Positions 74 through 33,145 of a stretch of DNA of 43,863 nt are shown piece by piece. Made by a program: the position numbers and the translations under genes. The number at the start of each line of letters is the position of its first letter. Position 1 is the stretch's first letter. The notes below the pieces were generated by a model. The model had not been told where the DNA came from and ran no database searches. It saw nothing but the letters and a program-made list of their open reading frames with translations. The stretch lies in sequence record SRR31156797_9699; one strand, given 5' to 3'.

Positions 74-874
74 CTAATACATGCCGTTGGGATGTTGAAA
101 CTCATGGGGAGCTGGAACCGGGGTATGGATATCCCAGTGCTCAACGACCTTGCCATCCCACACTCTTAGGATATGGCACACAACGATTTCCTTATTCCCA
201 GGGTACATATAGGAATTAAAGGCCATGACGAGATCGCCATCCGCAATCATATGGACGACCTTTCCTTTCGGTGGCTCCGGAGAATCATAATGTTTTTGAT
301 AGGCTTCAAACAAATTCTTCGTTCCTTCAGGGACATGGGGGCTGTGTTCTATGTAGGTCGCGTCCGACATAATGCGGTCGAATCCTCTTATGTCCCCATT
401 AAAGGCGTTTGTGAATGACGCTTTGACCAATTCCCTGTTCATGGTTTCCTGTTCCGGGGCCAAGTCGGTCCGGGGCATTAGGACATCTCCAAACATATCA
501 TATCCACTGGCAGTTGGGGCCACCGGTTCAACAGCATACCAGTGTTCAAAGAACTTATCCTCTTTCATTGAAAAAAAATCGATGACGGCCAATTCCAGAC
601 CGTTCCACGGATGATCGGGTATAGCCGGACCGGGACCCTTAAAATGAACCGCAATTAGCTCACCATCATCCATAACATGTTTAATTTCCGTGGGGAATGT
701 TCCACCCTGGATATCAAGGAAAAGATTTATTCCTTCCGGTCCATCCGGTAAAAAAGAGATGTGTTGAATGTAATCCTTATGAACATAATCGAACAACACC
801 TCTTTTCTTCCTTCTTTGAAGTATTCATCCCACCATCTCAAAAGCATCTTCTTTCTTTTCTCTGTAGTCAACAT
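74..874 (-). CDS. Tandem SnoaL/NTF2-like domain protein (ester cyclase family)
   Basis: Two repeats of the YIQH/YIEH...EHW(D) pattern. Start moved from 928 to the ATG at 874, which follows a purine-rich SD (GAAGGAGAGGAA). Confidence 0.8.
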   Translation of the reverse strand: MLTTEKRKKMLLRWWDEYFKEGRKEVLFDYVHKDYIQHISFLPDGPEGINLFLDIQGGTFPTEIKHVMDDGELIAVHFKGPGPAIPDHPWNGLELAVIDFFSMKEDKFFEHWYAVEPVAPTASGYDMFGDVLMPRTDLAPEQETMNRELVKASFTNAFNGDIRGFDRIMSDATYIEHSPHVPEGTKNLFEAYQKHYDSPEPPKGKVVHMIADGDLVMAFNSYMYPGNKEIVVCHILRVWDGKVVEHWDIHTPVPAPHEFQHPNGMY

Positions 875-924
875 TTCCTCTCCTTCCTTTTCCTCAATGG
901 CGGACGGCCCCAGAAGCACCCCTT

Positions 925-1029
925 TCACTTTGGTAATAATGAACGGATATCCTCTGGCTTGATGCCCGCATCATAAAGGGACCGATGAAACCGTGAATTT
1001 TCGTAGGCCCATTTGAATATGCGCCGGAA
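925..1029 (-). pseudogene. Remnant of the N-terminal region of a phenylacetate-CoA ligase (PaaK-like) gene
   Basis: Hand translation FRRIFKWAYENSRFHRSLYDAGIKPEDIRSLLPK*. This resembles the PaaK-family pattern AY.NS.F.R.LY..AGI.PEDI. No start codon, although a perfect SD (AGGAGGT, 1032-1038) lies just upstream. Confidence 0.65.
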
Positions 1030-1064: not shown

Positions 1065-1104
1065 AAAAAAAAAGCCTCTTCACCCGAATATAGGCGAAAG
1101 AGGC
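1065..1104 (-). terminator. Intrinsic terminator within the 5' leader (attenuator)
   Basis: Minus strand GCCTCTTTCGCC-TATATTC-GGGTGAAGAGGC followed by T9. Confidence 0.85.
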
Positions 1105-1314: not shown

Positions 1315-3195
1315 TTATCGCAATAGCTGAGGCAGAAATAGCGACACCGCGGGAAAGGCTATCAGGGTAATGAGCCGTGCAACGTCCGCCAGCAAAAAAG
1401 GAAAGATCCCTCGAAAAATGGTTGAGAGGGGCACATCTCCCGCAATCCCTTTCATGATATAGACGTTGATACCCACCGGCGGCGTGATCATTCCGATTTC
1501 GGAAATTACCACCACAATAATGCCAAACCAGATAAGGTCAAACCCAAGGCTTTCCACCACCGGTGCAAAAATGGGGACGGTGATAAAAACCAGAGGAAGT
1601 GTGCCCATCACACAACCCAGGCCGAAACAGATGGCCACAATGGCGGCGATGATCGCCACGGGCGGTACGGCAAGATTGGTGGCATAGTTGGCCAGTTCCA
1701 TTGGGAGCTGTGTGGAGGTGAGGAAGTACCCGTAGATGGCGGTGCCGATGACCACCAGAAACACCATGGATGTGGTGCGGCCGGTGGAGAGAAGGGCGTT
1801 GTACAGGTTCTTACTTTTAATCCGTCGACGAATGAGGCCAAAAACCAGTGCTCCGGTGGCACCGACGGCACCCGCCTCCGTAGGGGTAAAGAAACCCCCG
1901 TAGATACCCCCCATGATGAGGGCAAAGAGACACAATACCTCCCAGGTATCCCCCAGGGATTTTATCCGTTCTCCCATGGCAAAGCGGGGGCCCACAGGTC
2001 CCACTTCGGGGTTCACCCGTGTCCAGAGCATAATGGCAATCAAATAAAAGAGAAGGGACAAAAACCCCGGAATGATGCCGGCAAAGAAGAGTTCCGCAAT
2101 GGAAACTTCCGTGAGTATGCCGTAAATGATCAACACCACGCTGGGTGGAATGAGGATACCGATGGTGCCGCCTGCAGCGATGGACCCGGTGGCAAGGGTA
2201 TCGGCATATTTGTACCGTTTCATTTCAGGAAGGGAGACCGCGCCCATGGTGGCGGCGGTGGCAAGGGATGAACCGCTCACGGCGGAAAAAGCGCCACAGG
2301 CGAGCACCGTTGCCATGGAAAGCCCTCCCTTGAATTGGCCCACCCACTTGTAGGCCGCCTTATAGAGTTTCTCACTAAGTCCCGCCTGAAAGCATAGTTC
2401 CCCCATGAGAATGAAAAAGGGTATCACGCAAAGGGAATAGGATGCGGTCATGGAATAGGGAACGGTCCGCAAAAGCCCCAGGCCCGAGTCGGCGCCGAAC
2501 AAAAGCGCCATCCCGAAAAATCCCAAAAAACCGAGGGCAGCCCCGATCAGCATCCCCGAGAAAAGAAAGATGAGAAGTGCAATGACGCCGAAAACCTGGC
2601 CCATTTCCAGCTCCATCTCAATGCCTGTAAGCGGCAGGAGCACCAGCAGCACAACCAGGACGACAGCTGTGAAGGTTGCCATTCCATGGCCATTTTTAAA
2701 CGCTTGATGCGCATTTTTTAAAAACTCGGTCAGGGTGGTAATGGCAAACAGAAAGAAACCGATGGAAATAATCCACATCACCCAAAACAACGGAATCCGC
2801 AAATCAAAGGTGGCGGCGCCGTCATTTAAGCGGGTAATGGATTGGGCAAGACTTTGCCAGGTTAGGATCACGAAAAACAATCCCTGCACCAGGGAAGTAG
2901 CCGCAGAAAGGACCTCTTGTGCCCCTTTTGGCAGGCGAGCGGTAATAAAATCTACAGAAATATGATTCCCGGTGATCTGGGTATAGGCGATACCGCAGTA
3001 TACCAGTATCACGATCATCAGTTCTTCCAGTTCCACCGTCCCCACCAGCGGCTGGTGGAACAAGGCCCGGCTGATGACATGGGCCGTCACCAGGACCACC
3101 ATGAGCAGGGAAGTACAGGCGCCCGCCGCATTGAGAAACCGGGCCACCGGTTCGACGCGTTTTTCGAAACCTTCGACACGCTGTATAAAAGACAT
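1315..3195 (-). CDS. dctM: TRAP transporter fused small/large permease (DctQM)
   Basis: N-terminal DctQ-like region (HISVD) fused to DctM motifs (IPFFILMGE, SGSSLAT, GILIPPS, ITPPVG). Start at MSFIQ after GGGGAGG. Confidence 0.92.
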   Translation of the reverse strand: MSFIQRVEGFEKRVEPVARFLNAAGACTSLLMVVLVTAHVISRALFHQPLVGTVELEELMIVILVYCGIAYTQITGNHISVDFITARLPKGAQEVLSAATSLVQGLFFVILTWQSLAQSITRLNDGAATFDLRIPLFWVMWIISIGFFLFAITTLTEFLKNAHQAFKNGHGMATFTAVVLVVLLVLLPLTGIEMELEMGQVFGVIALLIFLFSGMLIGAALGFLGFFGMALLFGADSGLGLLRTVPYSMTASYSLCVIPFFILMGELCFQAGLSEKLYKAAYKWVGQFKGGLSMATVLACGAFSAVSGSSLATAATMGAVSLPEMKRYKYADTLATGSIAAGGTIGILIPPSVVLIIYGILTEVSIAELFFAGIIPGFLSLLFYLIAIMLWTRVNPEVGPVGPRFAMGERIKSLGDTWEVLCLFALIMGGIYGGFFTPTEAGAVGATGALVFGLIRRRIKSKNLYNALLSTGRTTSMVFLVVIGTAIYGYFLTSTQLPMELANYATNLAVPPVAIIAAIVAICFGLGCVMGTLPLVFITVPIFAPVVESLGFDLIWFGIIVVVISEIGMITPPVGINVYIMKGIAGDVPLSTIFRGIFPFLLADVARLITLIAFPAVSLFLPQLLR

Positions 3196-3229
3196 GGCTT
3201 CCTCCCCGCCCATTTTCATTTACGCACGG

Positions 3230-4258
3230 TTATTGGCTCTTTTCAGCCATGACTGCCATCGCTTTATCCAGCACTTTCTGAGGATCGGCATATCCTTTGG
3301 CCTTCGCGTCCTGAATCCATTTTTCGCGAACCGGCGCTACCTTTTCGGCCCACAGTTTTTGCTGTTCGGCGGACAAGATAAAGAATTTATCTCCTTTCTT
3401 GGCCATCCAGGCCACATCTCTTGCCTGTGCTGCATCAAATACCTCTCCCGATTTCTTGGCTGCCACAAGACCGCTGATGGCTTCAATGGCCTTTTTGTCC
3501 GGGGCTGAAATCTTGTCCCAGACGCTCTTGTTAACCGTCACAAAGAAAGAAACGGCCATCAGATTGGCATTGGTATGAAAATGGGTCAGATCCGCGATTT
3601 TTTGTGTGCGGAGCGGTGCATAGGGAAGAAAGCACCCTTCCACGACGCCTTTTTGCATGGCCAAAAAGACCTGCACCATGGGCATGGCTTCCGGAGAGGC
3701 GCCCAGAAGTCTCAGAAGCTGGGTCTGGGTTGCGCCACCGGCGCTGATCACCACGTTTTGAAGCTCTTTTAAATTCTGAACCTTCTTTTTGGTGAAATGC
3801 AGCTGAAACGCCGGATTCATATAGCTCCACAAGACCTTCACATCTTTCAACTCTTTCTGCATGTCAGGGGTTGATTGATACATTTCCCAGAGTGCCTCGC
3901 TGTTTTGAAGCGCTTTCTCACCCGCCACCATGGGCTGGTCCATGACCGAATTCAGGATCAGCTTGCTTCTGGTATATACGGGAAGCACAATGCCGATGTC
4001 CCCTACCCTTGAGGATATGGCATCCAGCGCATCTTTCGGTTTGAAAAGGGCGTTGGAGTAAAACATGGTGACCTTGACGCGGCCATCCGTCACCTTTTTG
4101 ACTTCTTTCGCCCAGGGTGCGAACACTTGTTTGCACAAGGGATGTTTGGGGCTGTACATGACGTTGAACCGCAGGTTCAGGGCACTGGCTGAACCGCTTA
4201 ACAGAACAATACTCAAGAATAATCCAATGGCGACCATCAATTGTTTTCTTTTCATCAT
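3230..4258 (-). CDS. dctP: TRAP transporter substrate-binding protein
   Basis: Signal peptide, DctP-like motifs (TDGRVKV, LGASP, QKGVVEG), adjacent to dctQM. Confidence 0.9.
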   Translation of the reverse strand: MMKRKQLMVAIGLFLSIVLLSGSASALNLRFNVMYSPKHPLCKQVFAPWAKEVKKVTDGRVKVTMFYSNALFKPKDALDAISSRVGDIGIVLPVYTRSKLILNSVMDQPMVAGEKALQNSEALWEMYQSTPDMQKELKDVKVLWSYMNPAFQLHFTKKKVQNLKELQNVVISAGGATQTQLLRLLGASPEAMPMVQVFLAMQKGVVEGCFLPYAPLRTQKIADLTHFHTNANLMAVSFFVTVNKSVWDKISAPDKKAIEAISGLVAAKKSGEVFDAAQARDVAWMAKKGDKFFILSAEQQKLWAEKVAPVREKWIQDAKAKGYADPQKVLDKAMAVMAEKSQ

Positions 4259-4319
4259 TTAATTCTCCCGTTGTTGAAGGTTTTTGTTTTAAAGCTCACA
4301 AACACAGCATTTATGCGGC

Positions 4320-5762
4320 TCATTCATCCTCGGGTTCATCCACTTCGGACACACACAACTGCGGACCCGGGTAAGGGAGAGTCCCCTCCACTTCAACCAA
4401 GCCCTCTTCAGGTTTCCATTCGGTTCCCGGAACCCGGAAACGGCTTCTGTCAAGTTTTGGAATCTCCTTTTCTTCAGGCCGATCCAGTTGAGGAACCCAG
4501 TCATAGGGAACCCGGTAGGCCCGGTAAACGAAATTGGCATTGTTGTTGATGCCGTAGTAAGGGCTAATGTATTCCCAGACGATTTCATAACCTTTCGTGA
4601 CCTCAAAGATACGCCCCAGGGAGCCTTCGGTGATCAATGTGTTGCCGTTGGGAAGCCGCTGGGCCGAACTGATGAGAGGCGAATAGAAATCGCTGTTGTT
4701 CATTTTGGGGAGAAAGCCTGCTTCCACATAGCTGTACTGCCAGACCACTTTAAGGGTAACCGGATCAAACTCGATGATGCGTGAATAATCTCTGATGGCG
4801 TCATTATGACCCGTGGGCGCTCCGGGGTTGGGTGAACCGTATCCGGCAAAACCGCCGTTGTCGAACACCAGGATGTTCCCCTCTCCCGGCAGTCCTCGGG
4901 GAATCATGTGGGCATGATGCTGACCGATAACCCACCCCATTTTCCGAAGTGCCGGATCCCGATCATAATCAGGGCCCACCTGCCATACAATTTTGCCGCT
5001 CTCCTTGTCGGTAATGGCGATGATGTTGGTTTGACGTCCGTCCCAGATGATGTTGTCCGGATGAAAACGCTTATCGCCTTCGTCAAACCATCGATTGGGC
5101 CCCAGGGTTGACACGCTGTTCATGTGCATCCAGTCACCGATTTGCCCTTCTCCCACCACCATGGTGGGATTGCGGGCCATGGCGTTCTTGGCCGCCTCAC
5201 TGAAATCCATTTCGTCAAAGTGTTCACTGCACACCCATTCCCAGATGATGTCTCCGTCCCAGTTCACCTCGTAGATCACATCATCCAGCAGCGGTTTGTC
5301 GCTGATCCGGGAATCGCTTACATCTTTATGTCCCAGAATAAGGGTATTGCCGCCTTCCACCATAGGTTCGAGCCCCGGCGCGTAATACCCCACGGGATTT
5401 CCTTCCCTCTGGTAATCATGATGCTGCCGGGCCATCCACATGCCTTCCTGTCCCGGATCTTCAATATATTCATACTGGTCAAACTTCCAGACCACGTTAC
5501 CGTCCCAATCCACCTGAACCACATCGGTGTAGTCCATAAAACCGTACTTGGGACTCCGCACACCGAGACTTGCCATCACCTGGCCGCCCGGCAGCAGCTT
5601 GGCGGGAAAACCGTGAAGCCCTTTCCAGAGATGAACCACATTTCCGTTCATATCCACCAGGGCTGGTCCCGTCTCACGGGCAATAAAGAGTGTGTAGCCA
5701 TTCCAGCATTTGCCCGGATTAAAAAGGGTTGCGCCGGTGGGGTAGATTGTCGGGGTACCCAT
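4320..5762 (-). CDS. Arylsulfate sulfotransferase (ASST family), no signal peptide
   Basis: Motifs RQHHD, WMHMNS, GQHHAH, LVFDNG, SSAQRLPNGNTLITEG, VYRAYR. Confidence 0.85.
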   Translation of the reverse strand: MGTPTIYPTGATLFNPGKCWNGYTLFIARETGPALVDMNGNVVHLWKGLHGFPAKLLPGGQVMASLGVRSPKYGFMDYTDVVQVDWDGNVVWKFDQYEYIEDPGQEGMWMARQHHDYQREGNPVGYYAPGLEPMVEGGNTLILGHKDVSDSRISDKPLLDDVIYEVNWDGDIIWEWVCSEHFDEMDFSEAAKNAMARNPTMVVGEGQIGDWMHMNSVSTLGPNRWFDEGDKRFHPDNIIWDGRQTNIIAITDKESGKIVWQVGPDYDRDPALRKMGWVIGQHHAHMIPRGLPGEGNILVFDNGGFAGYGSPNPGAPTGHNDAIRDYSRIIEFDPVTLKVVWQYSYVEAGFLPKMNNSDFYSPLISSAQRLPNGNTLITEGSLGRIFEVTKGYEIVWEYISPYYGINNNANFVYRAYRVPYDWVPQLDRPEEKEIPKLDRSRFRVPGTEWKPEEGLVEVEGTLPYPGPQLCVSEVDEPEDE

Positions 5763-5821
5763 TTCATATCTCCTCTTGCTTTAAGTTTTTATAAGGGTGC
5801 AGGTGTCAGAAAAGCCTGCAC

Positions 5822-6655
5822 TCATTTCGCAATCTCCGTCATGACCATATACCGCCTGCCTGCAGTTCGGTATTTGAATAGAGCACTGGAAGGCAGCGGT
5901 TCAATGGTTTTGAGCTTTTCATCCAGCGTGTTAGCGGGGTCAAAGGGCCTCAGTTCATAGGGATGTTTTTTCGAACCGGTGGCCTCCCCAATGGTTTTGG
6001 CGGTTTGGCCGATTTCTTCCGGCGTAATGAAGCGGATGGTGCCATCTTTTTCAACCAGCGGCGCCAGGGTAGTGTAGAACCGGTAATCCGGAAATTGTGC
6101 CACAAGGCTGATGGAAGCCTTTAATTCATCGGACGTTATCATTTTCCCCGTCAACGCTTCGTACAACCCGGCCGGCCCCTTTATATCCATAATGATCTGA
6201 TCACCCAATTTTTTTTCTTGGACGGCTTTCAGCACCAGGGAATTGTGGCCATCAGTGGTCAACAGGGTCTTCAGGCCGTTCTGCTTTAAATAAGCCATGA
6301 CCTGCAACAGTTCTTCCGTCCGGGATGGGTCACCGCCCGAGATGTTCAAACCGTCTATCCATTCCCCATGAAGCGCACTTCGGCCGATAAACCCGTCAAG
6401 CCCGTTGCCGGCAATCAGATGACCGATCACCACGCTCACTCCCTGGCGGATTACCCGGCCATCGGTAAAAACCGGAAATTCCACTCCGCCCTTGTCCCGG
6501 TAGATGTCCGCGCGATGGGCCCGGTAGAATTTTGCAAAGGCGTCTTTGCCATCGGCTTTGACGTCATATTCCTCGTAGTCCATGCCATTTTCCTTCATGA
6601 ACTTCTTGGTGATATTGCAGCGGGCGCAGCCCGTCGCGCTGTAGATCTGGGTCAT
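5822..6655 (-). CDS. Glutaredoxin/NrdH-like domain fused to a degenerate radical-SAM (NrdG-activase-like) barrel
   Basis: N-terminal YSATGCARC and VEFPV. C-terminal DGLNISGGDP...TTDG...IMDIKGP resembles activase motifs (GGEP, DTNG, MDxKxP), but there is no CxxxCxxC. Confidence 0.75.
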   Translation of the reverse strand: MTQIYSATGCARCNITKKFMKENGMDYEEYDVKADGKDAFAKFYRAHRADIYRDKGGVEFPVFTDGRVIRQGVSVVIGHLIAGNGLDGFIGRSALHGEWIDGLNISGGDPSRTEELLQVMAYLKQNGLKTLLTTDGHNSLVLKAVQEKKLGDQIIMDIKGPAGLYEALTGKMITSDELKASISLVAQFPDYRFYTTLAPLVEKDGTIRFITPEEIGQTAKTIGEATGSKKHPYELRPFDPANTLDEKLKTIEPLPSSALFKYRTAGRRYMVMTEIAK

Positions 6656-6700
6656 ATGCCTAACTCCTCATGTTTACTGGATTTTGCCAACAGCCAATGG

Positions 6701-8083
6701 CTAAATATGGATCGCATGCCCGCAAAGCGCATGGGCCGCCTCCATAAGCGCTTCGCAGAGCGTGGGGTGCGGATGCACCGTATCTGAAAGCTGCTCTGCA
6801 GTTGCCCCCAACGAAATCATTCCCGTGGCGCCCGCCACCAGCTCGGTGACGTGCCCCCCCACCAAATGCACACCCAGGATTTTCTTGCTTTCGGCTTCGG
6901 CCACAATTTTGGAAAACCCGCTGTTTTCGCCCATGGCCACGGCCTTGCCGTTCCCGGCAAAGGGGCTGACGGCGGTAATCACCTCATGACCCAGTTCACG
7001 GGCCCGGGCCTCGGTCAATCCGACGGAGGCAACTTCGGGCTGAGCGTAGGTGCATCGGGGGATATTGACATAATCCAACGGGGTCGTAGGTCTGCCGGCA
7101 ATGGTTTCAGCGGCAATCATGCCCTGGGCAGAGGCCACGTGCGCCAGGCCCATCTTGCCGTTCACATCCCCGATGGCGTAAATGTGGGGCACATTGGTGC
7201 GCATGGATTCATCCACATCAATGGTGCCTTTTGAAAGGGTGACATCCGCTTTTTCAAAATCCAGTCCCTGACAATTGGGCACAAAACCGATGGCCACCAG
7301 CACTTTTTCTACGGTAATGACATCCTTCGTCTCACCCTTTTTCACCGTCACCACAACGCCCTGGTTTTCGATTTGGATGCCTTCCACAAGTGTTTCGGTC
7401 TTGATATCAATGCCGTTTCGTTTAAACTGCTTTTCCGCCTCGATGCTGATCTCCTCATCCTCAAAAGGGAGCGCATGGGACATCAGTTCCACCACTGTCA
7501 CGCGGCATCCATAACGGTTCCAAATGGTTGCGAACTCCATTCCGATGGGTCCGGCCCCCACCACAAGCACTGATTCGGGCACCTCGGTCCATTGGAGTGC
7601 ATCGCGGAAATTGATGATCTTTTCACCGTCAAAGGGAGAATGGGGGAGCTCGCGACTGGTGGTGCCTGTGGCAATGATGATGTGCTTTCCTTGAATATGG
7701 GTGCCGGAGGGCGCCACCGTGACGGTATTCGGACCGCTGAAGCGTGCCGTTCCCTCATAAACCGTGACACCGCTGTTTTTCATGAGCAGCTTGATACGGC
7801 GGTTCTGGCGCGTTACCACCTGACGGCTTCGCTTGTGGGCCTGGGCAAAATCCACCGACAGATTGTCAAAGGAAAACCCAAAGGCACGGCCCTGGCTCAA
7901 TGAATGGATCACGTCTGCGTTTCGAAGCAGCGATTTGGTCGGGATACAGCCCCAGTTAAGGCACGTCCCCCCAAGCGCTTCCTTTTCCACCAAAGCCGTT
8001 TTCATCCCCAGTTGGGCGGTACGGGCAGCCGCCACATAACCCCCTGGACCACCACCGATGACAATCACATCGTAAATATCCAT
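6701..8083 (-). CDS. lpdA: Dihydrolipoamide dehydrogenase-family flavoprotein
   Basis: GGGPGGY FAD motif, GGTCLNWGCIPTK redox disulfide, C-terminal HPTLCE dyad. Start at MDIYD after GGGAGG. Confidence 0.9.
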   Translation of the reverse strand: MDIYDVIVIGGGPGGYVAAARTAQLGMKTALVEKEALGGTCLNWGCIPTKSLLRNADVIHSLSQGRAFGFSFDNLSVDFAQAHKRSRQVVTRQNRRIKLLMKNSGVTVYEGTARFSGPNTVTVAPSGTHIQGKHIIIATGTTSRELPHSPFDGEKIINFRDALQWTEVPESVLVVGAGPIGMEFATIWNRYGCRVTVVELMSHALPFEDEEISIEAEKQFKRNGIDIKTETLVEGIQIENQGVVVTVKKGETKDVITVEKVLVAIGFVPNCQGLDFEKADVTLSKGTIDVDESMRTNVPHIYAIGDVNGKMGLAHVASAQGMIAAETIAGRPTTPLDYVNIPRCTYAQPEVASVGLTEARARELGHEVITAVSPFAGNGKAVAMGENSGFSKIVAEAESKKILGVHLVGGHVTELVAGATGMISLGATAEQLSDTVHPHPTLCEALMEAAHALCGHAIHI

Positions 8084-8134
8084 GAGTTGAAACCCCTCCC
8101 CTTTACACATGAAACCATGCTCAAGCGTTTGAAT

Positions 8135-8334
8135 TATATATAATACATAATATGATTTTTAAAGGTCAAGAAGTTTTTTACCTAATTTTCATATCGGTTT
8201 TAAACTTGCTCAAACCGGTAAAATATTCGTTTTTCTCCATATAAATAGATACCTATCAATATTAAAATTCTCATAAATGGCATAGGTTGCCCTTGACACC
8301 CCAGTTCAAGGAGGCTATATATAATATATACTAT
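8135..8334. promoter_or_regulatory. Divergent promoter region with two near-identical AT-rich boxes (candidate FadR operators)
   Basis: TATATATAATACATAATAT (8135-8153) and TATATATAATATATACTAT (8316-8334). Each overlaps a -10-like element downstream of TTGACC (minus, 8164-8169) or TTGACA (plus, 8293-8298). Confidence 0.55.
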
Positions 8335-8409
8335 ATTTTTACAGCCTCGTAATTTAATGATAGATGAAATGAATATATACATTCCAGCCCTCTTAAGGAC
8401 AACAACACC

Positions 8410-9147
8410 ATGGCCAACGGATTCAGCCAGATCAACCGCTCAGCAAGTCTCACCGACGAGGTGGCAGCCAGAATAAAGGATTCCATTTTGAACGGAGATT
8501 ACGCCCCCGGTGATGCGATGCCCATCGAAAAAGAGATGGTGCATCAATTCGGCGTCAGTCGTGTGGTCATCCGAGAAGCGTTAAAGGAACTTAAATCAAA
8601 AGGTTTGATTGAAATCCGCCGTGGACCCAAAGGCGGCCCTTACGTAACACATTTTGACAAAATGTCCTTTGGCGAACAATTTATCGATATGGTCCGCCTT
8701 CGGCGCATAACCGTTGATCAACTCTATGACGCCAGGTTACTCTTTGAACCGGAGGTGGTACGCATTGTTCTCAAGAACATTACGGAAGAACAGATCGCAA
8801 CACTTAGGAAGCAGGTTTCAAAGGAAAAGGCCGAGTCCAATCCAGTCAGGCGGAAAGACCTGTTCCGAAACTTCCATCGAAAGCTGGGAGAATTCAGTGG
8901 AAACCCATTCTATGCACTAATGATGGACAGTTTCATGGACTTCGTGGACCGGTTTCTTATGGCCATCAATCCAGGGACTTATGACCTGCATGACCAGCAT
9001 ACCCACGGCGAAATCACCGAGGCCATCGCCGCCGGAGATGAGATGAAAGCCATCACACTGCTGCGGGCACATCTGCTGGATATTCGCGACAAAATGGTAG
9101 CCCAGGAAGAGGAATTTATCTCCCGGTCACGTGGAATGTTTGCTTGA
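8410..9147 (+). CDS. GntR/FadR family transcriptional regulator
   Basis: wHTH FGVSRVVIREAL..L...GLIEIRRG plus FCD domain (FHRKLGEFSGN, HGEITEAI). Confidence 0.93.
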   Translation: MANGFSQINRSASLTDEVAARIKDSILNGDYAPGDAMPIEKEMVHQFGVSRVVIREALKELKSKGLIEIRRGPKGGPYVTHFDKMSFGEQFIDMVRLRRITVDQLYDARLLFEPEVVRIVLKNITEEQIATLRKQVSKEKAESNPVRRKDLFRNFHRKLGEFSGNPFYALMMDSFMDFVDRFLMAINPGTYDLHDQHTHGEITEAIAAGDEMKAITLLRAHLLDIRDKMVAQEEEFISRSRGMFA

Positions 9148-9258: not shown

Positions 9259-9310
9259 TTTGACATTAAACTTTTTGAAAAATCACTTGAGGCAGTATCA
9301 GACAGAAAAA

Positions 9311-9595
9311 ATGGAATATAAAGTGCTTTTAACGGTTTTCATTGCTGTTTTCATTGCCGAACTGGGTGACAAGACCCAATTGGCCACAATGCTTTTTGCC
9401 GCCGACAAGGAGGTAAGTAAGCTTACCGTATTTATCGGTGCCTCTTTTGCCCTGATTGCCGCATCTGGCATCGGCGTCCTTGCAGGGGGTCTTATCTCCC
9501 GGTATATCAGCGAAAAACATCTACAGTTGATTGCGGGTATCGGGTTTATGGCCATCGGGATATGGATGCTTTATAAAGCGATGACGTCAGCTTGA
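9311..9595 (+). CDS. TMEM165/GDT1 (UPF0016) family membrane protein, single-repeat form
   Basis: AELGDKTQLAT signature and three hydrophobic segments. Confidence 0.9.
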   Translation: MEYKVLLTVFIAVFIAELGDKTQLATMLFAADKEVSKLTVFIGASFALIAASGIGVLAGGLISRYISEKHLQLIAGIGFMAIGIWMLYKAMTSA

Positions 9596-9726: not shown

Positions 9727-11010
9727 ATGTTTCGATTTATTCATGCGGCGGATATCCATCTGGACAGCCCCTTAAAGGGTCTGGAGGGCTATGAAGACGC
9801 CCCCGTGGACGAAATCCGAAACGCCAGCCGGCGGGCCTTTGACAACCTGGTGACGCTTGCCATGGAAGAAGAGGTCCGCTTTGTGCTCCTGGCCGGAGAT
9901 CTCTACGACGGAGACTGGAAGGATTACAACACGGGACTTTTTTTCACGAATCGCATGGGACGTCTGAAACGGCAAGGGATAAAAGTATTCATGGTGTCGG
10001 GCAACCACGACGCCCAAAGCCGCATATCCCAGCATCTCCAACCCCCGGATAACGTAACGACCTTTTCCGCCCGCAAGCCGGAAACCGTCCTGCTGGACGA
10101 CATGGGCGCAGCCATTCATGGGCAGGGATATGCTTCCAGGGCAATCACCCGAAACCTGGCGCAACACTACCCCCAATACCGTCCCGGCTACTTCAACATC
10201 GGGCTGCTTCACACCGGCTTAAACGGTAGGGAAGGGCATGAGCCTTATGCCCCCTGCTCCCCGGACGACCTTAAATCGAAGGGGTACGACTACTGGGCCC
10301 TGGGACACGTTCATCGGCGGGAAGTGGTCTGTAAGGATCCCTGGATCATTTTTCCCGGAAACCTTCAGGGACGGCATATTCGGGAAACGGGGCCCAAAGG
10401 CGCATCCATTGTCACCGTGGAAAACGGCCGGATCACGGATGTTACCCACCATGACCTGGATGTTCTCAGGTTCTGCATGGCCCGGGTGAACCTGTCCCAT
10501 TGCCGCCATATGGATGGGGTACACGACCCGGTCCTTCAGGCGCTGGAAGCCCAACAGGCGCAGGCGGATGGGCGGGTCCTGGCCGTTCGCCTGGAAATCA
10601 CGGGGGAAAGTCCCTTTCATATGAATCTCCTTTCCGATGCCGCCCGCCTTACGGAATCCTTTCGCGGCATCACAGCGGGACTGGGGGATATGTGGCTTGA
10701 AAAGGTCCTTTTCACAACCGTTAAAAAGGATCTCCCCAAGGAAATAACGGGGGAAATGATCGGGGAAGAAACGCCCCTGCACAACATAATGGCGGCGGTG
10801 GATCAATTGAAATGGGATCCGGAGCAGCTGCAAGACCCCCTCTCCCTTCAAATCCCGGACATCGCAGCCCTCAAAAGCAAACTGCCCCCCGATCTTCTGG
10901 GAAACGACGATCCACTGATCCCGAACCGACCGCAAAAAATCATGGATCTCTTGAATGATGTCAAAGCGCTCTTGGCCGCCCGATTGAGCCGGCAGGAGAA
11001 CTTGCCATGA
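9727..11010 (+). CDS. Mre11/SbcD-like metallophosphoesterase (YhaO type DNA repair exonuclease)
   Basis: HAADIHLD, AGDLYD, GNHD, LLHT, YWALGHVH, PGNLQGRH. Confidence 0.9.
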   Translation: MFRFIHAADIHLDSPLKGLEGYEDAPVDEIRNASRRAFDNLVTLAMEEEVRFVLLAGDLYDGDWKDYNTGLFFTNRMGRLKRQGIKVFMVSGNHDAQSRISQHLQPPDNVTTFSARKPETVLLDDMGAAIHGQGYASRAITRNLAQHYPQYRPGYFNIGLLHTGLNGREGHEPYAPCSPDDLKSKGYDYWALGHVHRREVVCKDPWIIFPGNLQGRHIRETGPKGASIVTVENGRITDVTHHDLDVLRFCMARVNLSHCRHMDGVHDPVLQALEAQQAQADGRVLAVRLEITGESPFHMNLLSDAARLTESFRGITAGLGDMWLEKVLFTTVKKDLPKEITGEMIGEETPLHNIMAAVDQLKWDPEQLQDPLSLQIPDIAALKSKLPPDLLGNDDPLIPNRPQKIMDLLNDVKALLAARLSRQENLP

Positions 11011-14000: not shown

Positions 14001-14528
14001 GCCCTTTCGGCCCAGCAAACCTTAGCTGGCATTCGACGGATGAGCGAACATTTCATTCGGCTCAAGGTGGCTTCAACCCTATTGAAGCAGGAAATTGAAC
14101 GGTTCAGGAATGAAAACCAGGACCCCATACTGAAAATTGCCTCCCGGTATTTCCGGCAATTGACCCTGGGTTCCTTTGAAGCGCTGAAAACGGACGAAGA
14201 TGACAGGGGGCAACCGGTGCTGGTAGGTTTGAAGCATCAGAATCGCATGATCCGGGTGGAAGGGATGAGTTCCGGAACCCGCGATCAGCTCTACCTGTCC
14301 CTGCGGCTTGCATCCCTTCAAAAGCGCCGGGAAACCGGGGAGACCATGCCTTTCATCGTGGACGATATCCTTATAAACTTTGACGATGAGCGTGCCGAAG
14401 CCACCCTGGAAGCCCTGGCGGAACTGGCATCAAAAACCCAGGTCATTCTCTTTACCCATCACGGGCGGATTGCGGAGGAAGCGGAAAAAATGGCCCACAC
14501 AACAAACTTGGAAGTGCATCACCTTTGA
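11007..14528 (+). CDS. YhaN-type SMC/Rad50-like AAA ATPase with long coiled coil
   Basis: Walker A GLNEAGKSS, signature MSSGTRDQLYLSLRLA, Walker B FIVDDILINFDD, FTHH. ATGA overlap with the upstream gene. Confidence 0.9.
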   Translation: MRIKRLDLIAFGPFTDRTLVFDSRGRGLTVIFGLNEAGKSSSLRALKCLLYGIPERTPDNFLHSNDQLLLGGCLKGHGGRELTFLRRKRRKTSLFDVHDNPLGVDALAPFLRGIGQDEFETLYGIDHEALVQGGRNILAQKGEVGQALFSAGAGIASLREILNALDIEADQLFRPRASTRDINRAISGYKKFQKEMRAATLSGRDWMNVAEDLRKTEAELVKVEQQRREKDIERRQLERLKQALPQLALRQQVLDRLQALGEFPHLPHDFTKRRKKATQDLQAAQQSRNAAVGLLSSLREKKENISFNPVLLDESQWIEALCQKLGSHRKAMKDRPRLEGMRISCKSEAAALLKQVPTDLSLEQVEHLRPFLGKRKAIQALASKYEALKQNKRQHRQQCRRLAATLSNIEGSLTQMPSLPDTDDLVQAVKLARKSGDLDGRLLEKTGLYEARKAQLVGGLSHLGLWDGDITKISQLPLPLRETILRFDENFRACNEKLGAAEKECKTLSDVRGRITRHTREIQYSGEVPTERELEQVRKSRDAQWHRIREHWLERKENPLESVSLAENMDLSDTYENQIKMADHLADRLRREADRVHKFATLKADQLANREATEATRKNLEDLNAEWEEISKEWKSIWKPCGIVPLPPSEMLGWSDKFEKIRFGAVELNKLEEEINSKKKEREKLRQGLLAASMNLENTKTFRDETLEPVLVFSETLLENLDRKKNERRKLLEKQNDLLNDLKSARHHEETAREESADWEKRWRESASLLNNNGPDKSRFIILPEEANDILESIQGCFLKLKEADEKHKRIVGIDRDAKNFVMEVQELVKKVAPDLESLQPEQAVQELQSLLKQNLEQKTLLQKYTREIEEAEEDNNRAEAAIHGATLEMAELRRIAGCKETDDLEEAERMAREHGDLHRKCNETEIALLTGAEGFSISQLEKQAKMLDPDELPGEIESLNREIEQHLDPEIRRLSETLGEKKRELQQMDGSAKAAEAALSAQQTLAGIRRMSEHFIRLKVASTLLKQEIERFRNENQDPILKIASRYFRQLTLGSFEALKTDEDDRGQPVLVGLKHQNRMIRVEGMSSGTRDQLYLSLRLASLQKRRETGETMPFIVDDILINFDDERAEATLEALAELASKTQVILFTHHGRIAEEAEKMAHTTNLEVHHL

Positions 14529-28476: not shown

Positions 28477-28748
28477 TAAAACAGAAGGAAGAATCCGGGC
28501 ACAAATTCAGTTACATAAGCAAAAAGCATAGCCTCCCAAATCGTACCGGTTAAGACAAATACTCATGTCAATCCCTTTGATATTTCAAATACAGAAGAAA
28601 TTAGACCAAAATCATCCTTACACTGTCAATGCTTATATTGCCAATATTTTTATCATCATAGCACAAATAAGCACCATCGCTTATGGTATGGTTCGGTTTT
28701 AGATCGTGAATTTATTTTTGAGTTATCTCTAAGAGGGCGAAGTTAGGA

Positions 28749-30489: not shown

Positions 30490-30491
30490 AA

Positions 30492-33142: not shown

Positions 33143-33145
33143 TTT

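What the first reader, a model, noticed from the sequence alone, without database searches (positions are those of the whole stretch)
1315..9147. Candidate aryl-sulfate respiration/desulfation system: TRAP + cytoplasmic ASST + redoxin + LpdA
Seen: one co-oriented operon lpdA - CxxC redoxin fusion - ASST - dctP - dctQM, divergent from a FadR regulator. The ASST has no signal peptide and carries a Cys in its acidic C-terminal tail (GPQLCVSEVDEPEDE). Established: characterised ASST (E. coli) is periplasmic, PAPS-independent, forms a sulfo-histidine and pairs with DsbL/DsbI. Inference: an imported aryl sulfate donates its sulfuryl group to ASST, the group passes to a thiol, and NADH -> LpdA -> redoxin releases sulfite. 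In a sulfate reducer this would bypass ATP-costly sulfate activation. I do not know of a described system with this gene set.
Basis: partly seen in the sequence, partly recalled or inferred. Interest (0 to 1): 0.8.

Follow-up and report, generated by a model that had tools for sequence, protein, structure and literature searches.

The report
Predicted aryl-sulfate reductase gene cluster
A conserved operon of sulfate-reducing bacteria joins a cytoplasmic relative of aryl-sulfate sulfotransferase to its own NADH-driven thiol-reducing chain and an importer of the aromatic-acid kind, which suggests an undescribed, ATP-free way of turning aromatic sulfate esters into sulfite.

Summary
Five co-oriented genes sit opposite a GntR/FCD regulator: lpdA, a CxxC glutaredoxin fused to a cluster-less NrdG-like domain, an ASST-like propeller without a leader, dctP and dctQM.

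- The tail Cys470 is kept in 117 of 120 close homologues and missing from 78 of 78 more distant relatives, many of which carry an N-terminal leader.
- The sulfo-histidine nucleophile and four sulfuryl-binding residues of E. coli ASST are kept in 120 of 120.
- The full-length redoxin fusion was found only in genomes with this ASST clade: 9 of 12 against 0 of 389.
- Other lineages pair the clade with thioredoxin plus a reductase, or fuse it to thioredoxin.
- GcvH often sits beside LpdA.
- The clade tracks dsrA: 18 of 22 against 35 of 279 genomes.
- DctP's nearest solved relatives bind aromatic acids, but it lacks their conserved Arg.

Best reading: the sulfuryl group passes from aryl sulfate to His282, then to Cys470, and leaves as sulfite by thiol reduction, as in APS/PAPS reductases. 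No biochemistry exists and the redox partner varies. Five literature searches found nothing comparable.

The parts
6701..8110 (-). lpdA-type flavoprotein disulfide reductase. It has the redox-active C50LNWGC55 motif and a C-terminal HPHPTLCE motif. The true start is probably the ATG at 8081-8083.
   Evidence: TIGR01350 scores 541.9 bits against a cut-off of 408.8. Pyr_redox_2 scores 252.8 bits and Pyr_redox_dim 120.8 bits. Motifs and the start codon were read. Homologues begin at the position of M10.
5822..6655 (-). Redoxin fusion. An N-terminal glutaredoxin/NrdH-like domain carries the C10-A-R-C13 motif (codons 6617-6628). The C-terminal domain derives from an NrdG-type radical-SAM activase but has no Fe-S cluster cysteines.
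   Evidence: PF00462 scores 27.2 bits against 22.9. TIGR02495 matches residues 98-200 at 46.4 bits, below its cut-off of 131. C10 and C13 are invariant and are the only conserved Cys in 11 of 11 homologues. Ordinary NrdG-type proteins match only residues ~96-260. The family has 420 members, named hypothetical, glutaredoxin or PFL activase.
4320..5762 (-). Cytoplasmic ASST-family beta-propeller, 480 aa. Predicted sulfuryl-carrying His282 (4917-4919); His115 (5418-5420), His213 (5124-5126), Asn215 (5118-5120) and Arg243 (5034-5036); clade-specific tail Cys470 (4353-4355) followed by an acidic end.
   Evidence: Pfam hits. AF2 model with pLDDT 94.5, with blocks 461-470 and 471-480 at 75 and 54. 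Foldseek hits to Cpz4 at E 7e-17 and to E. coli ASST at E 4e-11. hhalign to E. coli CFT073 ASST with probability 97.7. Conservation counts. Codons checked.
3230..4258 (-). TRAP solute-binding protein DctP with a signal peptide. It belongs to the aromatic-acid-binding group, but the Arg found in the five nearest solved relatives is Ser172 here (3743-3745).
   Evidence: PF03480 scores 108.6 bits. AF2 model with pLDDT 83. The top Foldseek PDB group consists of TarP and other aromatic-acid binding proteins plus four entries whose ligand the truncated titles do not show. Arg-to-Ser is seen in the alignments to 4n6d, 4nap, 4pgn, 7nr2 and 5im2. Ser is kept in 7 of 7 orthologues of at least 50% identity.
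1315..3219 (-). Fused TRAP membrane subunits DctQ-DctM.
   Evidence: DctQ scores 86.1 bits and DctM 320 bits. TIGR00786 scores 342.4 bits against 268.45.
1078..1099 (-). Terminator-like hairpin (8 pairs followed by a T run) after dctQM. It is the likely end of the operon.
   Evidence: It is a consensus match only: the region has 18 such sites against 11.1 expected.
8111..8409 (.). Divergent control region. Promoter-like hexamers lie upstream of lpdA (8133-8169, - strand, 10 of 12 matches). Two AT-rich palindromic blocks are conserved in the orthologous spacer of L006.
   Evidence: Promoter-like sites are not enriched in the region (9 found, 8.2 expected).
8410..9147 (+). GntR-family regulator with an FCD effector domain (FadR subfamily), divergent from the operon.
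   Evidence: GntR 70.6 bits and FCD 69.3 bits. The same arrangement occurs in L006, L009 and L011.

Best explanation
The operon encodes an NADH-dependent system that takes the sulfuryl group off an imported aromatic sulfate ester and releases it as sulfite. Only gene content, conservation, co-occurrence and fold are shown. Every chemical step is inferred.

Proposed steps:
1. The TRAP system, built around an aromatic-type binding protein, imports an anionic aryl sulfate. A sulfated phenolic acid is the most likely kind.
2. The cytoplasmic ASST-like propeller accepts the sulfuryl group on His282, as periplasmic ASST does on His436, and releases the phenol.
3. The group passes not to a second phenol but to Cys470 on the enzyme's flexible acidic C-terminal tail. 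This gives an enzyme thiosulfonate (Cys-S-SO3-), the intermediate of APS/PAPS reductases.
4. The CxxC of the glutaredoxin fusion attacks that intermediate and sulfite leaves.
5. The oxidised redoxin is re-reduced by NADH through LpdA, in many lineages via a lipoyl-GcvH encoded alongside.
6. In sulfate reducers the sulfite would enter DsrAB without ATP sulfurylase or APS reductase. In carriers without dsrAB it may serve sulfur assimilation.
For: Catalytic site. The protein has the ASST fold: Foldseek gives Cpz4 at E 7e-17 and E. coli ASST at E 4e-11, from a model with pLDDT 94.5. The residues that a review lists as the E. coli active site align as follows in hhalign at probability 97.7: His436, the nucleophile, with H282; His252 with H115; His356 with H213; Asn358 with N215; Arg374 with R243. 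All five are kept in 120 of 120 close homologues.

Tail cysteine. Cys470 is the only near-invariant Cys: 117 of 120, against 96 for C19 and 101 for C178. It is also present in 13 of 13 further clade genes from another phylum sample. Its column is a gap in 70 of 78 more distant relatives and holds no Cys in any of them, and many of those relatives carry an N-terminal leader. It lies 5-17 residues from the end, in a lower-confidence, mostly acidic tail.

Thiol reductants recur in three independent forms.
(a) The Grx fusion. It lies within 10 kb in 12 of 16 loci; three of the four exceptions are contigs cut beside the gene or only 1.7 kb long. In one phylum sample the full-length form occurs in 9 of 12 carrier genomes and 0 of 389 others, always on the same contig, 30 bp to 10.4 kb away. 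The uncorrected Fisher p is 3e-16. In a second sample it occurs in 6 of 22 carriers and full-length in 0 of 279 others.
(b) Thioredoxin plus a thioredoxin-reductase-like flavoprotein, directly downstream in L045.
(c) ASST-thioredoxin fusion proteins P0122 and P0128.
Plant APS reductases likewise carry a C-terminal thioredoxin-like domain.

Electron input. LpdA homologues of at least 50% identity occur in 9 of 16 loci. GcvH lies beside LpdA or the redoxin in L010, L013, L016, L026, L028, L029 and L031.

Mechanistic precedent. Sulfonucleotide reductases form E-Cys-S-SO3- on a C-terminal Cys and need thioredoxin to release sulfite (PMC1175818, passages read).

Substrate class. In the Foldseek PDB list for DctP, every entry shown down to rank 27 belongs to one group at E 1e-24 to 1e-28. 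It holds TarP with ferulate, coumarate, cinnamate, caffeate or 4-hydroxyphenylacetate, binding proteins titled 'specific for aromatic acid ligands', and four entries (4n6d, 4nap, 4p56, 5im2) whose ligand the truncated titles do not show. The next entries, binding proteins for sugar acids and sialic acid among them, follow at E 3e-20 or weaker. Partner importers elsewhere are all uptake systems: DASS, a family named for sodium:sulfate and citrate transport, MFS, TctC and ABC.

Link to sulfite reduction. dsrA above its cut-off occurs in 18 of 22 carriers against 35 of 279 non-carriers of one phylum sample, uncorrected p 7e-12. It is also present in 5 of 5 carriers titled SAR324, Veillonellaceae, Bacillota, Proteobacteria and Sporomusaceae.

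Complex prediction for ASST with the redoxin fusion gave weak support: score 0.45, best of 3 controls 0.01. The mark was reached by 51 of 78 solved complexes and 2 of 108 mismatched pairs, but at 0.60 or under by only 5 of those 78 and by all 4 mismatches that passed (of 180). The runs agree in at least 68% of contacts and the partner's pLDDT is at least 89.
Against: - There is no biochemical or expression evidence. No RNA run holder was listed.
- The sixth E. coli site residue, Thr501, aligns with Ile364, although Ser365 follows it.
- I could not measure how far Cys470 lies from His282, because model coordinates are not exposed. The last two ten-residue blocks of the model, 461-470 and 471-480, have pLDDT of only 75 and 54.
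- The redox partner is not universal. No full-length Grx fusion was found in 3 of 12 carriers or in 16 of 22, and several loci show no redoxin at all (L043, L044, L046-L050). The cycle would there have to rely on housekeeping thioredoxin, or the Cys has another role.
- Four of 22 carriers lack both dsrA and asrC.
- The two MAGs closest to the window, G002 and G708, gave no dsrA hit, although both have aprA above its cut-off. G710 also gave no dsrA hit.
- DctP's solved relatives with a stated ligand bind unsulfated aromatic acids, so the cargo could be a plain phenolic acid.
- The phyletic tests are not corrected for shared ancestry, and the genomes are MAG-rich samples of unknown completeness.
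- The complex prediction is only weak.
Confidence: 0.5

Rival explanations
1. The propeller is an ordinary ping-pong sulfotransferase that works in the cytoplasm. It moves a sulfuryl group between an imported aryl sulfate or phenolic acid and another phenol or alcohol, for detoxification or modification. The tail Cys is a regulatory or oxidation-sensitive residue, and the redoxin with LpdA merely keeps it reduced. This would mirror the way DsbL/DsbI serve E. coli ASST, but in the reducing direction.
For: The ASST active site is intact. Relatives with an N-terminal leader and no tail Cys keep the same residues, so the Cys is not needed for ASST chemistry as such. E. coli ASST is encoded beside dedicated thiol-disulfide oxidoreductases. 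A cytoplasmic-type ASST, Cpz4, acts as a plain transferase. Many carrier loci have no dedicated redoxin.
Against: Keeping one Cys reduced in a reducing cytoplasm would not be expected to need an operon-encoded NADH reductase, a lipoyl carrier and a special redoxin. It would also not be expected to be re-invented as Trx plus TrxR and as covalent Trx fusions. No acceptor-forming or donor-regenerating gene is conserved nearby. This reading does not explain the enrichment in dsrA genomes.
Confidence: 0.2
2. The propeller has kept the ASST scaffold but acts on a different anionic sulfur compound. Candidates are an S-sulfonate or thiosulfonate, a sulfamate, or an aromatic sulfoxide or disulfide. The thiol chain reduces that substrate, and the product is not sulfite derived from a sulfate ester.
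For: No NCBIfam model names the protein. Identity to characterised ASSTs is only 16-20%. Thr501 is not kept, and an extra invariant pair, Gln368-Arg369, is present that E. coli ASST lacks. DctP lacks the Arg found in its nearest solved relatives, so the ligand is unusual.
Against: Five of six sulfuryl-site residues, including the nucleophilic His, are invariant in 120 of 120. That is hard to reconcile with a change of transferred group. The nearest structures are both sulfate-ester transferases.
Confidence: 0.15
3. The system runs in reverse as a sulfite sink. Sulfite reacts with an enzyme or redoxin disulfide to give Cys-S-SO3-. The sulfuryl group then goes through His282 onto an imported phenolic acid, and the electrons pass through the redoxin and LpdA to NAD+. 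This would detoxify sulfite or make a sulfated product.
For: Every proposed step is formally reversible. The cargo suggested by DctP's relatives is an unsulfated aromatic acid. The module sits in organisms that generate sulfite internally.
Against: From general knowledge, not from a call: activated sulfate/sulfite couples lie far above NAD+/NADH (APS/sulfite about -60 mV against -320 mV). Sulfite oxidation to an aryl sulfate with NAD+ as acceptor would therefore be strongly uphill. No exporter for a sulfated product is conserved.
Confidence: 0.07

Closest known systems
Periplasmic aryl-sulfate sulfotransferase AssT of E. coli CFT073 with DsbL/DsbI (PDB 3ELQ, 3ETS, 4P04-4P07)
   Same: Same propeller fold (Foldseek E 4e-11). 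It is PAPS-independent and works by a ping-pong mechanism through sulfo-His436 (review passages). His252, His356, Asn358, Arg374 and His436 align with H115, H213, N215, R243 and H282. It is encoded beside dedicated thiol-disulfide oxidoreductases.
   Different: Identity is 16-17%. E. coli ASST has a signal peptide and an N-terminal beta-sandwich domain. The window protein aligns only from E. coli precursor residue 204 onward and has no leader. E. coli ASST has no C-terminal Cys tail. Its partners, DsbL/DsbI, belong to disulfide-forming families and have no NADH link. Thr501 is not kept.
Cpz4, the ASST-type sulfotransferase of caprazamycin biosynthesis in Streptomyces (PDB 9KF4, 9KF6)
   Same: It is the closest solved structure (Foldseek E 7e-17; profile search E 2e-9). 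It is of similar size (472 aa). The His aligned with H282 is present.
   Different: Identity is 19-20%. It is a biosynthetic transferase onto a sugar hydroxyl. No redoxin or LpdA partner is mentioned in what I read. I did not check whether it has a tail Cys.
Assimilatory APS/PAPS reductases (CysH family) with thioredoxin, and plant APS reductase with a fused thioredoxin-like domain
   Same: This is what the window's system would work like. A Cys on a flexible C-terminal tail takes the sulfuryl group as E-Cys-S-SO3-, a CxxC redoxin is required to release sulfite, and natural fusions to a thioredoxin domain exist (PMC1175818 passages; abstract of bioRxiv 10.64898/2026.09.04.749436 in the listing). 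Compare Cys470, the Grx fusion, and P0122 and P0128.
   Different: The fold is unrelated: no PAPS-reductase family hit appeared. The sulfuryl donor is a nucleotide anhydride, not an aryl ester, and there is no histidine relay. The resemblance is one of mechanism, not of family membership.
NADH - Lpd - lipoyl protein (SucB) - AhpD (CxxC) - AhpC chain of Mycobacterium tuberculosis (recalled from memory, not checked in a call)
   Same: A dihydrolipoyl dehydrogenase feeds a lipoyl carrier protein, which reduces a CxxC adaptor, which in turn reduces a Cys-based enzyme. This matches the LpdA/GcvH/Grx-fusion gene sets of L010, L016, L028 and L029.
   Different: The terminal enzyme there is a peroxiredoxin, and the adaptor has another fold. 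The window's own operon has no GcvH gene.
Organosulfonate respiration (taurine or isethionate imported, C-S bond cleaved by a glycyl-radical enzyme, sulfite passed to DsrAB)
   Same: An imported organosulfur anion, taken up by a TRAP system in O. alaskensis, yields cytoplasmic sulfite for dissimilatory sulfite reductase without sulfate activation (abstracts of PMC6453916 and PMC11668362 in the listing).
   Different: That pathway cleaves a C-S bond by a glycyl-radical enzyme with a true radical-SAM activase. Here an O-S ester would be cleaved by group transfer and thiol reduction, and the activase-like domain has lost its cluster cysteines.

Membership tests
Aryl-sulfate sulfotransferase (ASST; PF05935/PF14269) | Match to the family profile above its gathering score | tested here: met
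   PF05935 scores 85.2 bits against 24.2; PF14269 scores 62.1 bits against 27. No NCBIfam model matches.
Aryl-sulfate sulfotransferase (ASST; PF05935/PF14269) | Beta-propeller fold like the solved ASSTs | tested here: met
   Model pLDDT 94.5. The best PDB matches are Cpz4 at E 7e-17 and E. coli ASST at E 4e-11. I did not count the blades.
Aryl-sulfate sulfotransferase (ASST; PF05935/PF14269) | Nucleophilic histidine that carries the sulfuryl group (E. coli His436) | tested here: met
   It aligns with H282 (hhalign probability 97.7). H282 is kept in 120 of 120 close homologues and 74 of 78 distant ones.
Aryl-sulfate sulfotransferase (ASST; PF05935/PF14269) | Sulfuryl-binding residues His252, His356, Asn358, Arg374 and Thr501 (list taken from the review) | tested here: inconclusive
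   Four are met: H115, H213, N215 and R243, each in 120 of 120. Thr501 aligns with Ile364, with Ser365 next to it.
Aryl-sulfate sulfotransferase (ASST; PF05935/PF14269) | Export to the periplasm and an N-terminal beta-sandwich domain, as in the E. coli type | tested here: not met
   There is no N-terminal leader: the protein starts where leader-bearing relatives begin after their leaders. The alignment to E. coli ASST starts at its residue 204. No signal-peptide predictor was run.
Aryl-sulfate sulfotransferase (ASST; PF05935/PF14269) | Aryl sulfate:phenol sulfuryl transfer activity | not testable with these tools
   This needs an enzyme assay.
Sulfonucleotide (APS/PAPS) reductase | Homology to the PAPS-reductase fold | tested here: not met
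   No such Pfam or NCBIfam hit for any of the five proteins. Only the mechanism is proposed to be alike.
Sulfonucleotide (APS/PAPS) reductase | Catalytic Cys on a C-terminal tail together with a thioredoxin-type partner | tested here: met
   Cys470 is kept in 117 of 120. Partners are the CxxC redoxin or Trx. That the Cys is catalytic is inferred.
Dihydrolipoyl dehydrogenase (TIGR01350) | Equivalog score above the cut-off, the CxxxxC redox centre and the C-terminal His-Glu motif | tested here: met
   541.9 bits against 408.8. CLNWGC at residues 50-55 and HPHPTLCE near the C-terminus. Activity on lipoamide is not testable here.
Glutaredoxin/NrdH-type redoxin (PF00462) | Profile match and a CxxC active site | tested here: met
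   27.2 bits against 22.9. C10 and C13 are invariant in 11 of 11. The match covers only the first ~38 residues. Glutathione-binding residues were not examined.
Radical-SAM activating enzyme (NrdG/PflA type) | CxxxCxxC motif that binds the 4Fe-4S cluster | tested here: not met
   The only conserved Cys are those of the glutaredoxin CxxC. TIGR02495 scores 46.4 bits against a cut-off of 131 and covers only profile positions 61-166. This is a relic domain, not an activase.
TRAP transporter (DctP/DctQ/DctM) | All three components present | tested here: met
   PF03480, PF04290 and PF06808, with Q and M fused.
TRAP transporter (DctP/DctQ/DctM) | Conserved Arg of the binding protein that clamps the ligand's carboxylate | tested here: not met
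   Ser172 aligns with the Arg of 4n6d, 4nap, 4pgn, 7nr2 and 5im2. Ser is present in 7 of 7 orthologues of at least 50% identity. The role of that Arg is taken from PMC11668362. I did not map that paper's numbering onto these chains.

The most novel reading that the evidence does not exclude
Aromatic sulfate esters act as terminal electron acceptors. A widespread, ATP-independent 'aryl-sulfate reductase' (ASST propeller with sulfo-His, then tail Cys thiosulfonate, then thiol-dependent sulfite release, driven by NADH through LpdA, lipoyl-GcvH and redoxin) feeds DsrAB directly in sulfate reducers of sediments and guts.

In the loci that also encode an outer-membrane porin and an ASST paralogue with a signal peptide (L028, L029, L037), the two ASSTs would form a sulfuryl shuttle. 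The exported enzyme would load sulfuryl groups from assorted external aryl sulfates onto one transportable phenolic carrier. That carrier would be imported, stripped to sulfite by the cytoplasmic enzyme, and recycled.
Probability: 0.3. Interest if true: 0.9.

Novelty: categorically new. Interest (0 to 1): 0.8.

Why it matters
If the mechanism holds, it defines a new enzyme activity: reduction of a sulfate ester to sulfite by group transfer plus thiol chemistry. It would also open a new entry into the dissimilatory sulfur cycle that skips ATP sulfurylase and APS reductase.

Sulfated phenolics such as plant and seagrass metabolites and animal phase-II conjugates would become respiratory substrates for sulfide producers in marine sediments and intestines. 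That has consequences for sulfur budgets, for isotope interpretation and for the fate of host-sulfated drugs and metabolites.

It would also give a physiological role to part of the ASST family. Two recent papers describe the natural function and donors of that family as unknown.

The family is large. More than 6,900 homologues passed E 1e-5 among 7,999 scored candidates in a search that was capped, and some genomes carry up to five copies.

Even if the mechanism is wrong, the module is a conserved, unannotated redox system built on a catalytically intact ASST scaffold.

Tried and rejected
- No whole genome is held for the window. Paralogues and dsr genes of the organism itself could not be checked; the related MAGs G002 and G708 stood in.
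- No RNA holder was listed among public runs.
- Selenocysteine idea. In-frame TGAs were flagged in three relatives of 48-51% identity. They turned out to be the ordinary stop codons just after the YRAYR(I/V)PYD motif, or to lie upstream of the start. Rejected.
- asrC as an alternative sulfite reductase in the four dsrA-negative carriers: 0 of 4.
- Literature on DctP ligands. A search by PDB codes was swamped by the unrelated word 'TarP'. Two TRAP papers did not list the codes. The FEBS J paper on TarP is not held. I therefore took the ligands from the PDB titles returned by Foldseek.
- Five searches for a described system found nothing that fits. These were ASST + TRAP + Desulfo; aryl sulfate + sulfite + sulfate-reducing; sulfotransferase + Lpd + GcvH; arylsulfate + thiosulfonate and related terms; and six phrases such as 'aryl sulfate reductase' and 'reductive desulfation', with 0 papers. 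Subscription journals are mostly outside that library, and supplementary files were not opened.
- The first conservation script timed out. It was rerun with faster alignment settings.
- Chance adjacency was considered and rejected on the co-occurrence counts.

Full report
WHAT IS THERE

On the minus strand lie five co-oriented genes, separated by 45, 59, 61 and 10 bp.
- lpdA, 6701-8110.
- A 277-aa redoxin fusion, 5822-6655.
- A 480-aa ASST-like gene, 4320-5762.
- dctP, 3230-4258.
- Fused dctQM, 1315-3219.

A GntR/FCD regulator (8410-9147, plus strand) is divergent across a 299-bp AT-rich spacer. A terminator-like hairpin at 1078-1099 follows dctQM. Profile searches give the following.
- LpdA passes the dihydrolipoyl-dehydrogenase equivalog, at 541.9 bits against 408.8.
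- The redoxin has a glutaredoxin/NrdH-like N-terminus (PF00462, 27.2 bits against 22.9).
- Residues 98-200 of the redoxin resemble profile positions 61-166 of 193 in the NrdG2 activase model, far below its cut-off (46.4 bits against 131).
- The propeller matches both ASST Pfam families and no NCBIfam model.

The rest of the window is ordinary chromosome of a Gram-negative bacterium, with LPS genes, glyQS and a branched-chain-type ABC importer.

THE ASST-LIKE PROTEIN IS A CATALYTICALLY INTACT, LEADERLESS ASST WITH AN ADDED CYS TAIL

An AlphaFold model built from 111 sequences has pLDDT 94.5. Only blocks 461-470 and 471-480 drop, to 75 and 54. Its best PDB matches are Cpz4 (E 7e-17) and E. coli ASST (E 4e-11), at 16-20% identity.

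I fetched the annotated ASST of E. coli CFT073, which lies next to dsbL and dsbI, and aligned it to the family profile. hhalign gave probability 97.7 over 294 columns. A 2026 review (passages read) names His436 as the sulfuryl carrier and His252, His356, Asn358, Arg374 and Thr501 as the site. These align as follows.
- His436 aligns with H282.
- His252 aligns with H115.
- His356 aligns with H213.
- Asn358 aligns with N215.
- Arg374 aligns with R243.
- Thr501 aligns with I364, followed by S365.

The numbering was cross-checked against the PDB chain alignment. In the 120 best cluster representatives (65-96% identity) the first five are each present in 120 of 120. In 78 more distant representatives of at least 400 aa they are present in 64 to 74 of 78.

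The window protein starts MGTPTIYPTG. Relatives at about 50% identity carry a hydrophobic or twin-arginine-like leader of 20-30 residues before the same motif, and most end near residue 445. E. coli ASST aligns only from its residue 204, so the N-terminal sandwich domain is absent.

Cys470 sits in a QLCV/ALCV context, 5-17 residues from an acidic end.
- It is present in 117 of 120 close homologues.
- Its column is a gap in 70 of the 78 distant ones and holds no Cys in any of them.
- It is the only near-invariant Cys in the clade.
- It is also present in 13 of 13 further clade genes fetched from another phylum sample.

THE ENZYME IS TIED TO THIOL REDUCTANTS IN SEVERAL INDEPENDENT WAYS

Sixteen loci from species-representative genomes encode a 63-93% identical protein.
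- Twelve have a homologue of the redoxin fusion within 10 kb.
- Of the four without, L004 and L014 are cut directly beside the gene and L015 is 1.7 kb long. L007 has 3.9 kb of upstream sequence without one.
- LpdA homologues of at least 50% identity occur in nine.
- The record titles name Desulfobacterales, Desulfocapsaceae, Desulfopila, Desulfobacula, SAR324, Desulfosporosinus nitroreducens P130 (an isolate), Sporomusaceae, Veillonellaceae and unclassified Bacillota.

In a 401-genome sample of the phylum of the closest MAG, the tail-bearing clade occurs in 12 genomes, seven of them with two copies. I defined the clade as at least 61% identity with a match reaching residue 471 or beyond. The full-length redoxin fusion occurs in nine genomes. 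All nine are among those 12, with both genes on the same contig, 30 bp to 10.4 kb apart. None of the other 389 genomes has it. Seventy-five other genomes match only over residues ~96-260, which is the ordinary NrdG-type activase. The uncorrected Fisher p is 3e-16.

A 301-genome sample of the phylum of the Sporomusaceae MAG has 22 carriers, with up to five copies in one genome. Only six have the fusion, and none of the 279 non-carriers has it full-length; there are two partial hits.

I looked at nine loci from seven carrier genomes of that sample.
- L045 has, directly after the ASST gene, a 111-aa thioredoxin and a 407-aa thioredoxin-reductase-like flavoprotein with its own C-terminal thioredoxin domain.
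- The other loci show no redoxin nearby.

Two representatives from the all-against-library search, P0122 (589 aa) and P0128 (596 aa), are ASST-like proteins fused to a C-terminal thioredoxin domain with CxxC. P0122 keeps the tail Cys between the two domains.

GcvH genes lie beside LpdA or the redoxin in L010, L013 and L016 (Pfam) and in L026, L028, L029 and L031 (blastp).

In the redoxin family only C10 and C13 are conserved Cys, in 11 of 11. Its 420 members are annotated as hypothetical, glutaredoxin or PFL-activating enzyme.

A complex prediction for the two window proteins gave weak support.
- The score was 0.45, with the best of 3 controls at 0.01.
- The mark was reached by 51 of 78 solved complexes and 2 of 108 mismatched pairs.
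- At 0.60 or under, however, it was reached by only 5 of those 78 and by all 4 mismatches that passed (of 180).
- The runs agree in at least 68% of contacts, and the partner's pLDDT is at least 89.

WHAT COMES IN

The partner importers differ from locus to locus, but all are uptake systems.
- TRAP: the window, L001-L004, L006, L007, L009, L011, L014 and L032.
- DASS (Na_sulph_symp/CitMHS): Pfam-checked in L008, L013, L016, L043 and L044, and assigned by similarity in other loci.
- MFS: L029.
- TctC: L033.
- An ABC system with an NMT1/THI5-like binding protein: L046, L048 and L050.

A model of the window's DctP has pLDDT 83. In its Foldseek PDB list, every entry shown down to rank 27 belongs to one group at E 1e-24 to 1e-28. 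That group holds the following.
- TarP proteins with ferulate, coumarate, cinnamate, caffeate or 4-hydroxyphenylacetate.
- Marine-metagenome binding proteins titled 'specific for aromatic acid ligands'.
- 4n6d, 4nap, 4p56 and 5im2, whose ligand the truncated titles do not show.

The next entries, binding proteins for sugar acids and sialic acid among them, start at E 3e-20.

The Arg that all five nearest solved relatives share aligns with Ser172 in the window protein. In TRAP binding proteins a conserved Arg clamps the ligand's carboxylate (PMC11668362, passage); I did not map that paper's numbering onto these chains. The Ser is kept in all seven orthologues of at least 50% identity that sit beside a tail-Cys ASST.

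So the cargo looks aromatic, with an unusual anionic group. That fits an aryl sulfate but does not prove one.

In some high-GC loci of the first sample (L028, L029, L037) the cluster holds two further genes.
- One is a secreted ~528-aa protein that the ESM Atlas names an outer-membrane homotrimeric porin. Only the L028 copy was checked.
- The other is a second ASST paralogue (about 30% identity, PF05935) with a signal peptide and no tail Cys.

LINK TO SULFITE REDUCTION

dsrA above its curated cut-off was found in 5 of 5 carriers titled SAR324, Veillonellaceae, Bacillota, Proteobacteria and Sporomusaceae. In the 301-genome sample it occurs in 53 genomes: 18 of the 22 carriers against 35 of 279 non-carriers, uncorrected p 7e-12.

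The four exceptions (G429, G517, G557, G707; 5.6-7.3 Mb) also lack asrC. In the three I fetched, the ASST gene sits with a MarR regulator and the ABC importer described above. The NMT1/THI5 fold is also that of sulfonate- and taurine-binding proteins (from memory). That arrangement fits sulfur scavenging better than respiration.

Of ten further carriers tested, seven have dsrA. G002 and G708, the closest relatives of the window organism, do not, but both have aprA above its cut-off. They are therefore probably incomplete MAGs of sulfate reducers. G710 gave no dsrA hit.

MECHANISM PROPOSED, AND WHAT IS SHOWN AGAINST WHAT IS INFERRED

Shown:
- the fold and the active-site residues;
- the absence of a leader;
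- the clade-specific tail Cys;
- the recurrent redoxin, reductase and GcvH partners, and the fusions to thioredoxin;
- the importer types;
- the enrichment in dsrA genomes.

Inferred:
- the sulfuryl group moves from an imported aryl sulfate to His282, then to Cys470 as a thiosulfonate;
- the redoxin's CxxC releases sulfite;
- NADH re-reduces the redoxin through LpdA, with lipoyl-GcvH in between where it is encoded.

The middle steps copy the established mechanism of APS/PAPS reductases. There a C-terminal Cys forms E-Cys-S-SO3-, thioredoxin is required for sulfite release, and plant enzymes carry a fused thioredoxin-like domain (PMC1175818, passages read).

From general knowledge, not from a call: aryl sulfates have a sulfuryl-transfer potential near that of PAPS, and the APS/sulfite couple (about -60 mV) lies well above NADH. 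The reduction should therefore be downhill and the reverse reaction uphill.

I put this reading at 0.5. Its rivals:
- a plain cytoplasmic transferase whose Cys is merely kept reduced (0.2);
- a different sulfur substrate on the same scaffold (0.15);
- a reverse, sulfite-consuming direction (0.07).

WEAK POINTS
- There is no biochemistry, and no RNA run holder was listed.
- The tail's reach to the active site could not be measured.
- Thr501 is not kept.
- The dedicated redoxin is missing from many carriers.
- The statistics are not corrected for phylogeny, and the genome samples are of unknown completeness.
- The complex prediction is only weak.

NOVELTY

Recent papers say that the physiological donors and roles of bacterial ASSTs are unknown (review passages; PNAS Nexus 2025 passages). 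None of the passages I read mentions a cytoplasmic, Cys-tailed, redoxin-linked clade.

Five full-text searches found no description of such a system. The last, on six phrases such as 'aryl sulfate reductase', returned 0 papers. The library lacks most subscription journals, and I opened no supplements.

The proteins belong to known families. The system as a whole, and the activity it implies, match no described kind. Functionally it would sit between ASST and CysH.

Noticed in passing
window 74-928 (-): A 284-aa protein with two SnoaL-like domains lies just downstream of the operon, beyond the terminator-like hairpin. It has no NCBIfam match. Whether it acts on the released phenolic product is unknown.
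   Followed up: partly
window 8081-8110: The longest lpdA ORF starts at 8110, but homologues begin at the position of the internal ATG at 8081-8083 (M10, MDIYDVIVIGGG). The annotated start is probably 27 nt too far upstream.
   Followed up: partly
window 8111-8409; L006 7335-7685: Two AT-rich blocks are conserved between the window and the orthologous divergent spacer of L006: TATAGTATATAT.AT.TATAGCCT near the regulator gene, and CTTGAC...ATATTATGTATTATATAT near lpdA. They contain palindromes and are candidate operators of the GntR/FCD regulator.
   Followed up: partly
L028 9282-12290; L029 6850-9858; L037 240-3279: The clusters of some high-GC genomes add two genes. One is a secreted ~528-545-aa protein with no Pfam family, named an outer-membrane homotrimeric porin by the ESM Atlas (only the L028 copy was checked). 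The other is an ASST paralogue of ~30% identity that lacks the tail Cys; it carries a signal peptide in the L028 copy, the only one translated. Together with the cytoplasmic ASST they could form a sulfuryl shuttle.
   Followed up: partly
proteins P0122 (589 aa), P0128 (596 aa): These are natural fusions of a leaderless ASST-like propeller to a C-terminal thioredoxin domain with CxxC. P0122 keeps a tail Cys between the domains; P0128 does not.
   Followed up: partly
L045 7292-10481: An ASST-clade gene is followed by a 111-aa thioredoxin and a 407-aa thioredoxin-reductase-like flavoprotein with a fused C-terminal thioredoxin domain. This replaces the Grx fusion and LpdA of the window.
   Followed up: partly
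L043, L044, L045, L047 (C-termini of ASST-clade genes): Several clade members extend the tail beyond the Cys with a long acidic run that ends in an aromatic residue (...TGALF...TGAMF...PTSMF...SFTQF...FEDTF). Some leader-bearing relatives end in an acidic run plus Tyr. This may be a docking peptide.
   Followed up: no
window 3743-3745 (DctP Ser172): This TRAP binding-protein subfamily has Ser where the five nearest solved relatives have the conserved Arg. The Ser is kept in 7 of 7 orthologues. The way the ligand's anionic group is bound must differ.
   Followed up: partly
window 9260-9595 (+): A small GDT1/UPF0016-family membrane protein (111 aa) lies next to the regulator. It gives weak sub-threshold hits to TauE/SafE, which are probably meaningless.
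   Followed up: no
window 9727-14528 (+): A pair of genes encodes a calcineurin-like phosphoesterase (427 aa) and a 1173-aa coiled-coil AAA_27 ATPase. This looks like an SbcCD-like nuclease pair.
   Followed up: no
window 27085-34905 (-): A cluster encodes a 463-aa protein with a GntR domain, EtfA and EtfB, an Fe-type alcohol dehydrogenase, an FGGY kinase and an FAD-linked oxidase. An ABC importer of the branched-chain-amino-acid type lies beside it. It looks like an uncharacterised catabolic unit.
   Followed up: no
L001 and L006: In the two MAGs whose isolate names begin with MFD, the orthologous lpdA, ASST, dctP and dctQM genes are split into two to four ORF pieces. These are probably frameshift errors of the assemblies rather than pseudogenes.
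   Followed up: no
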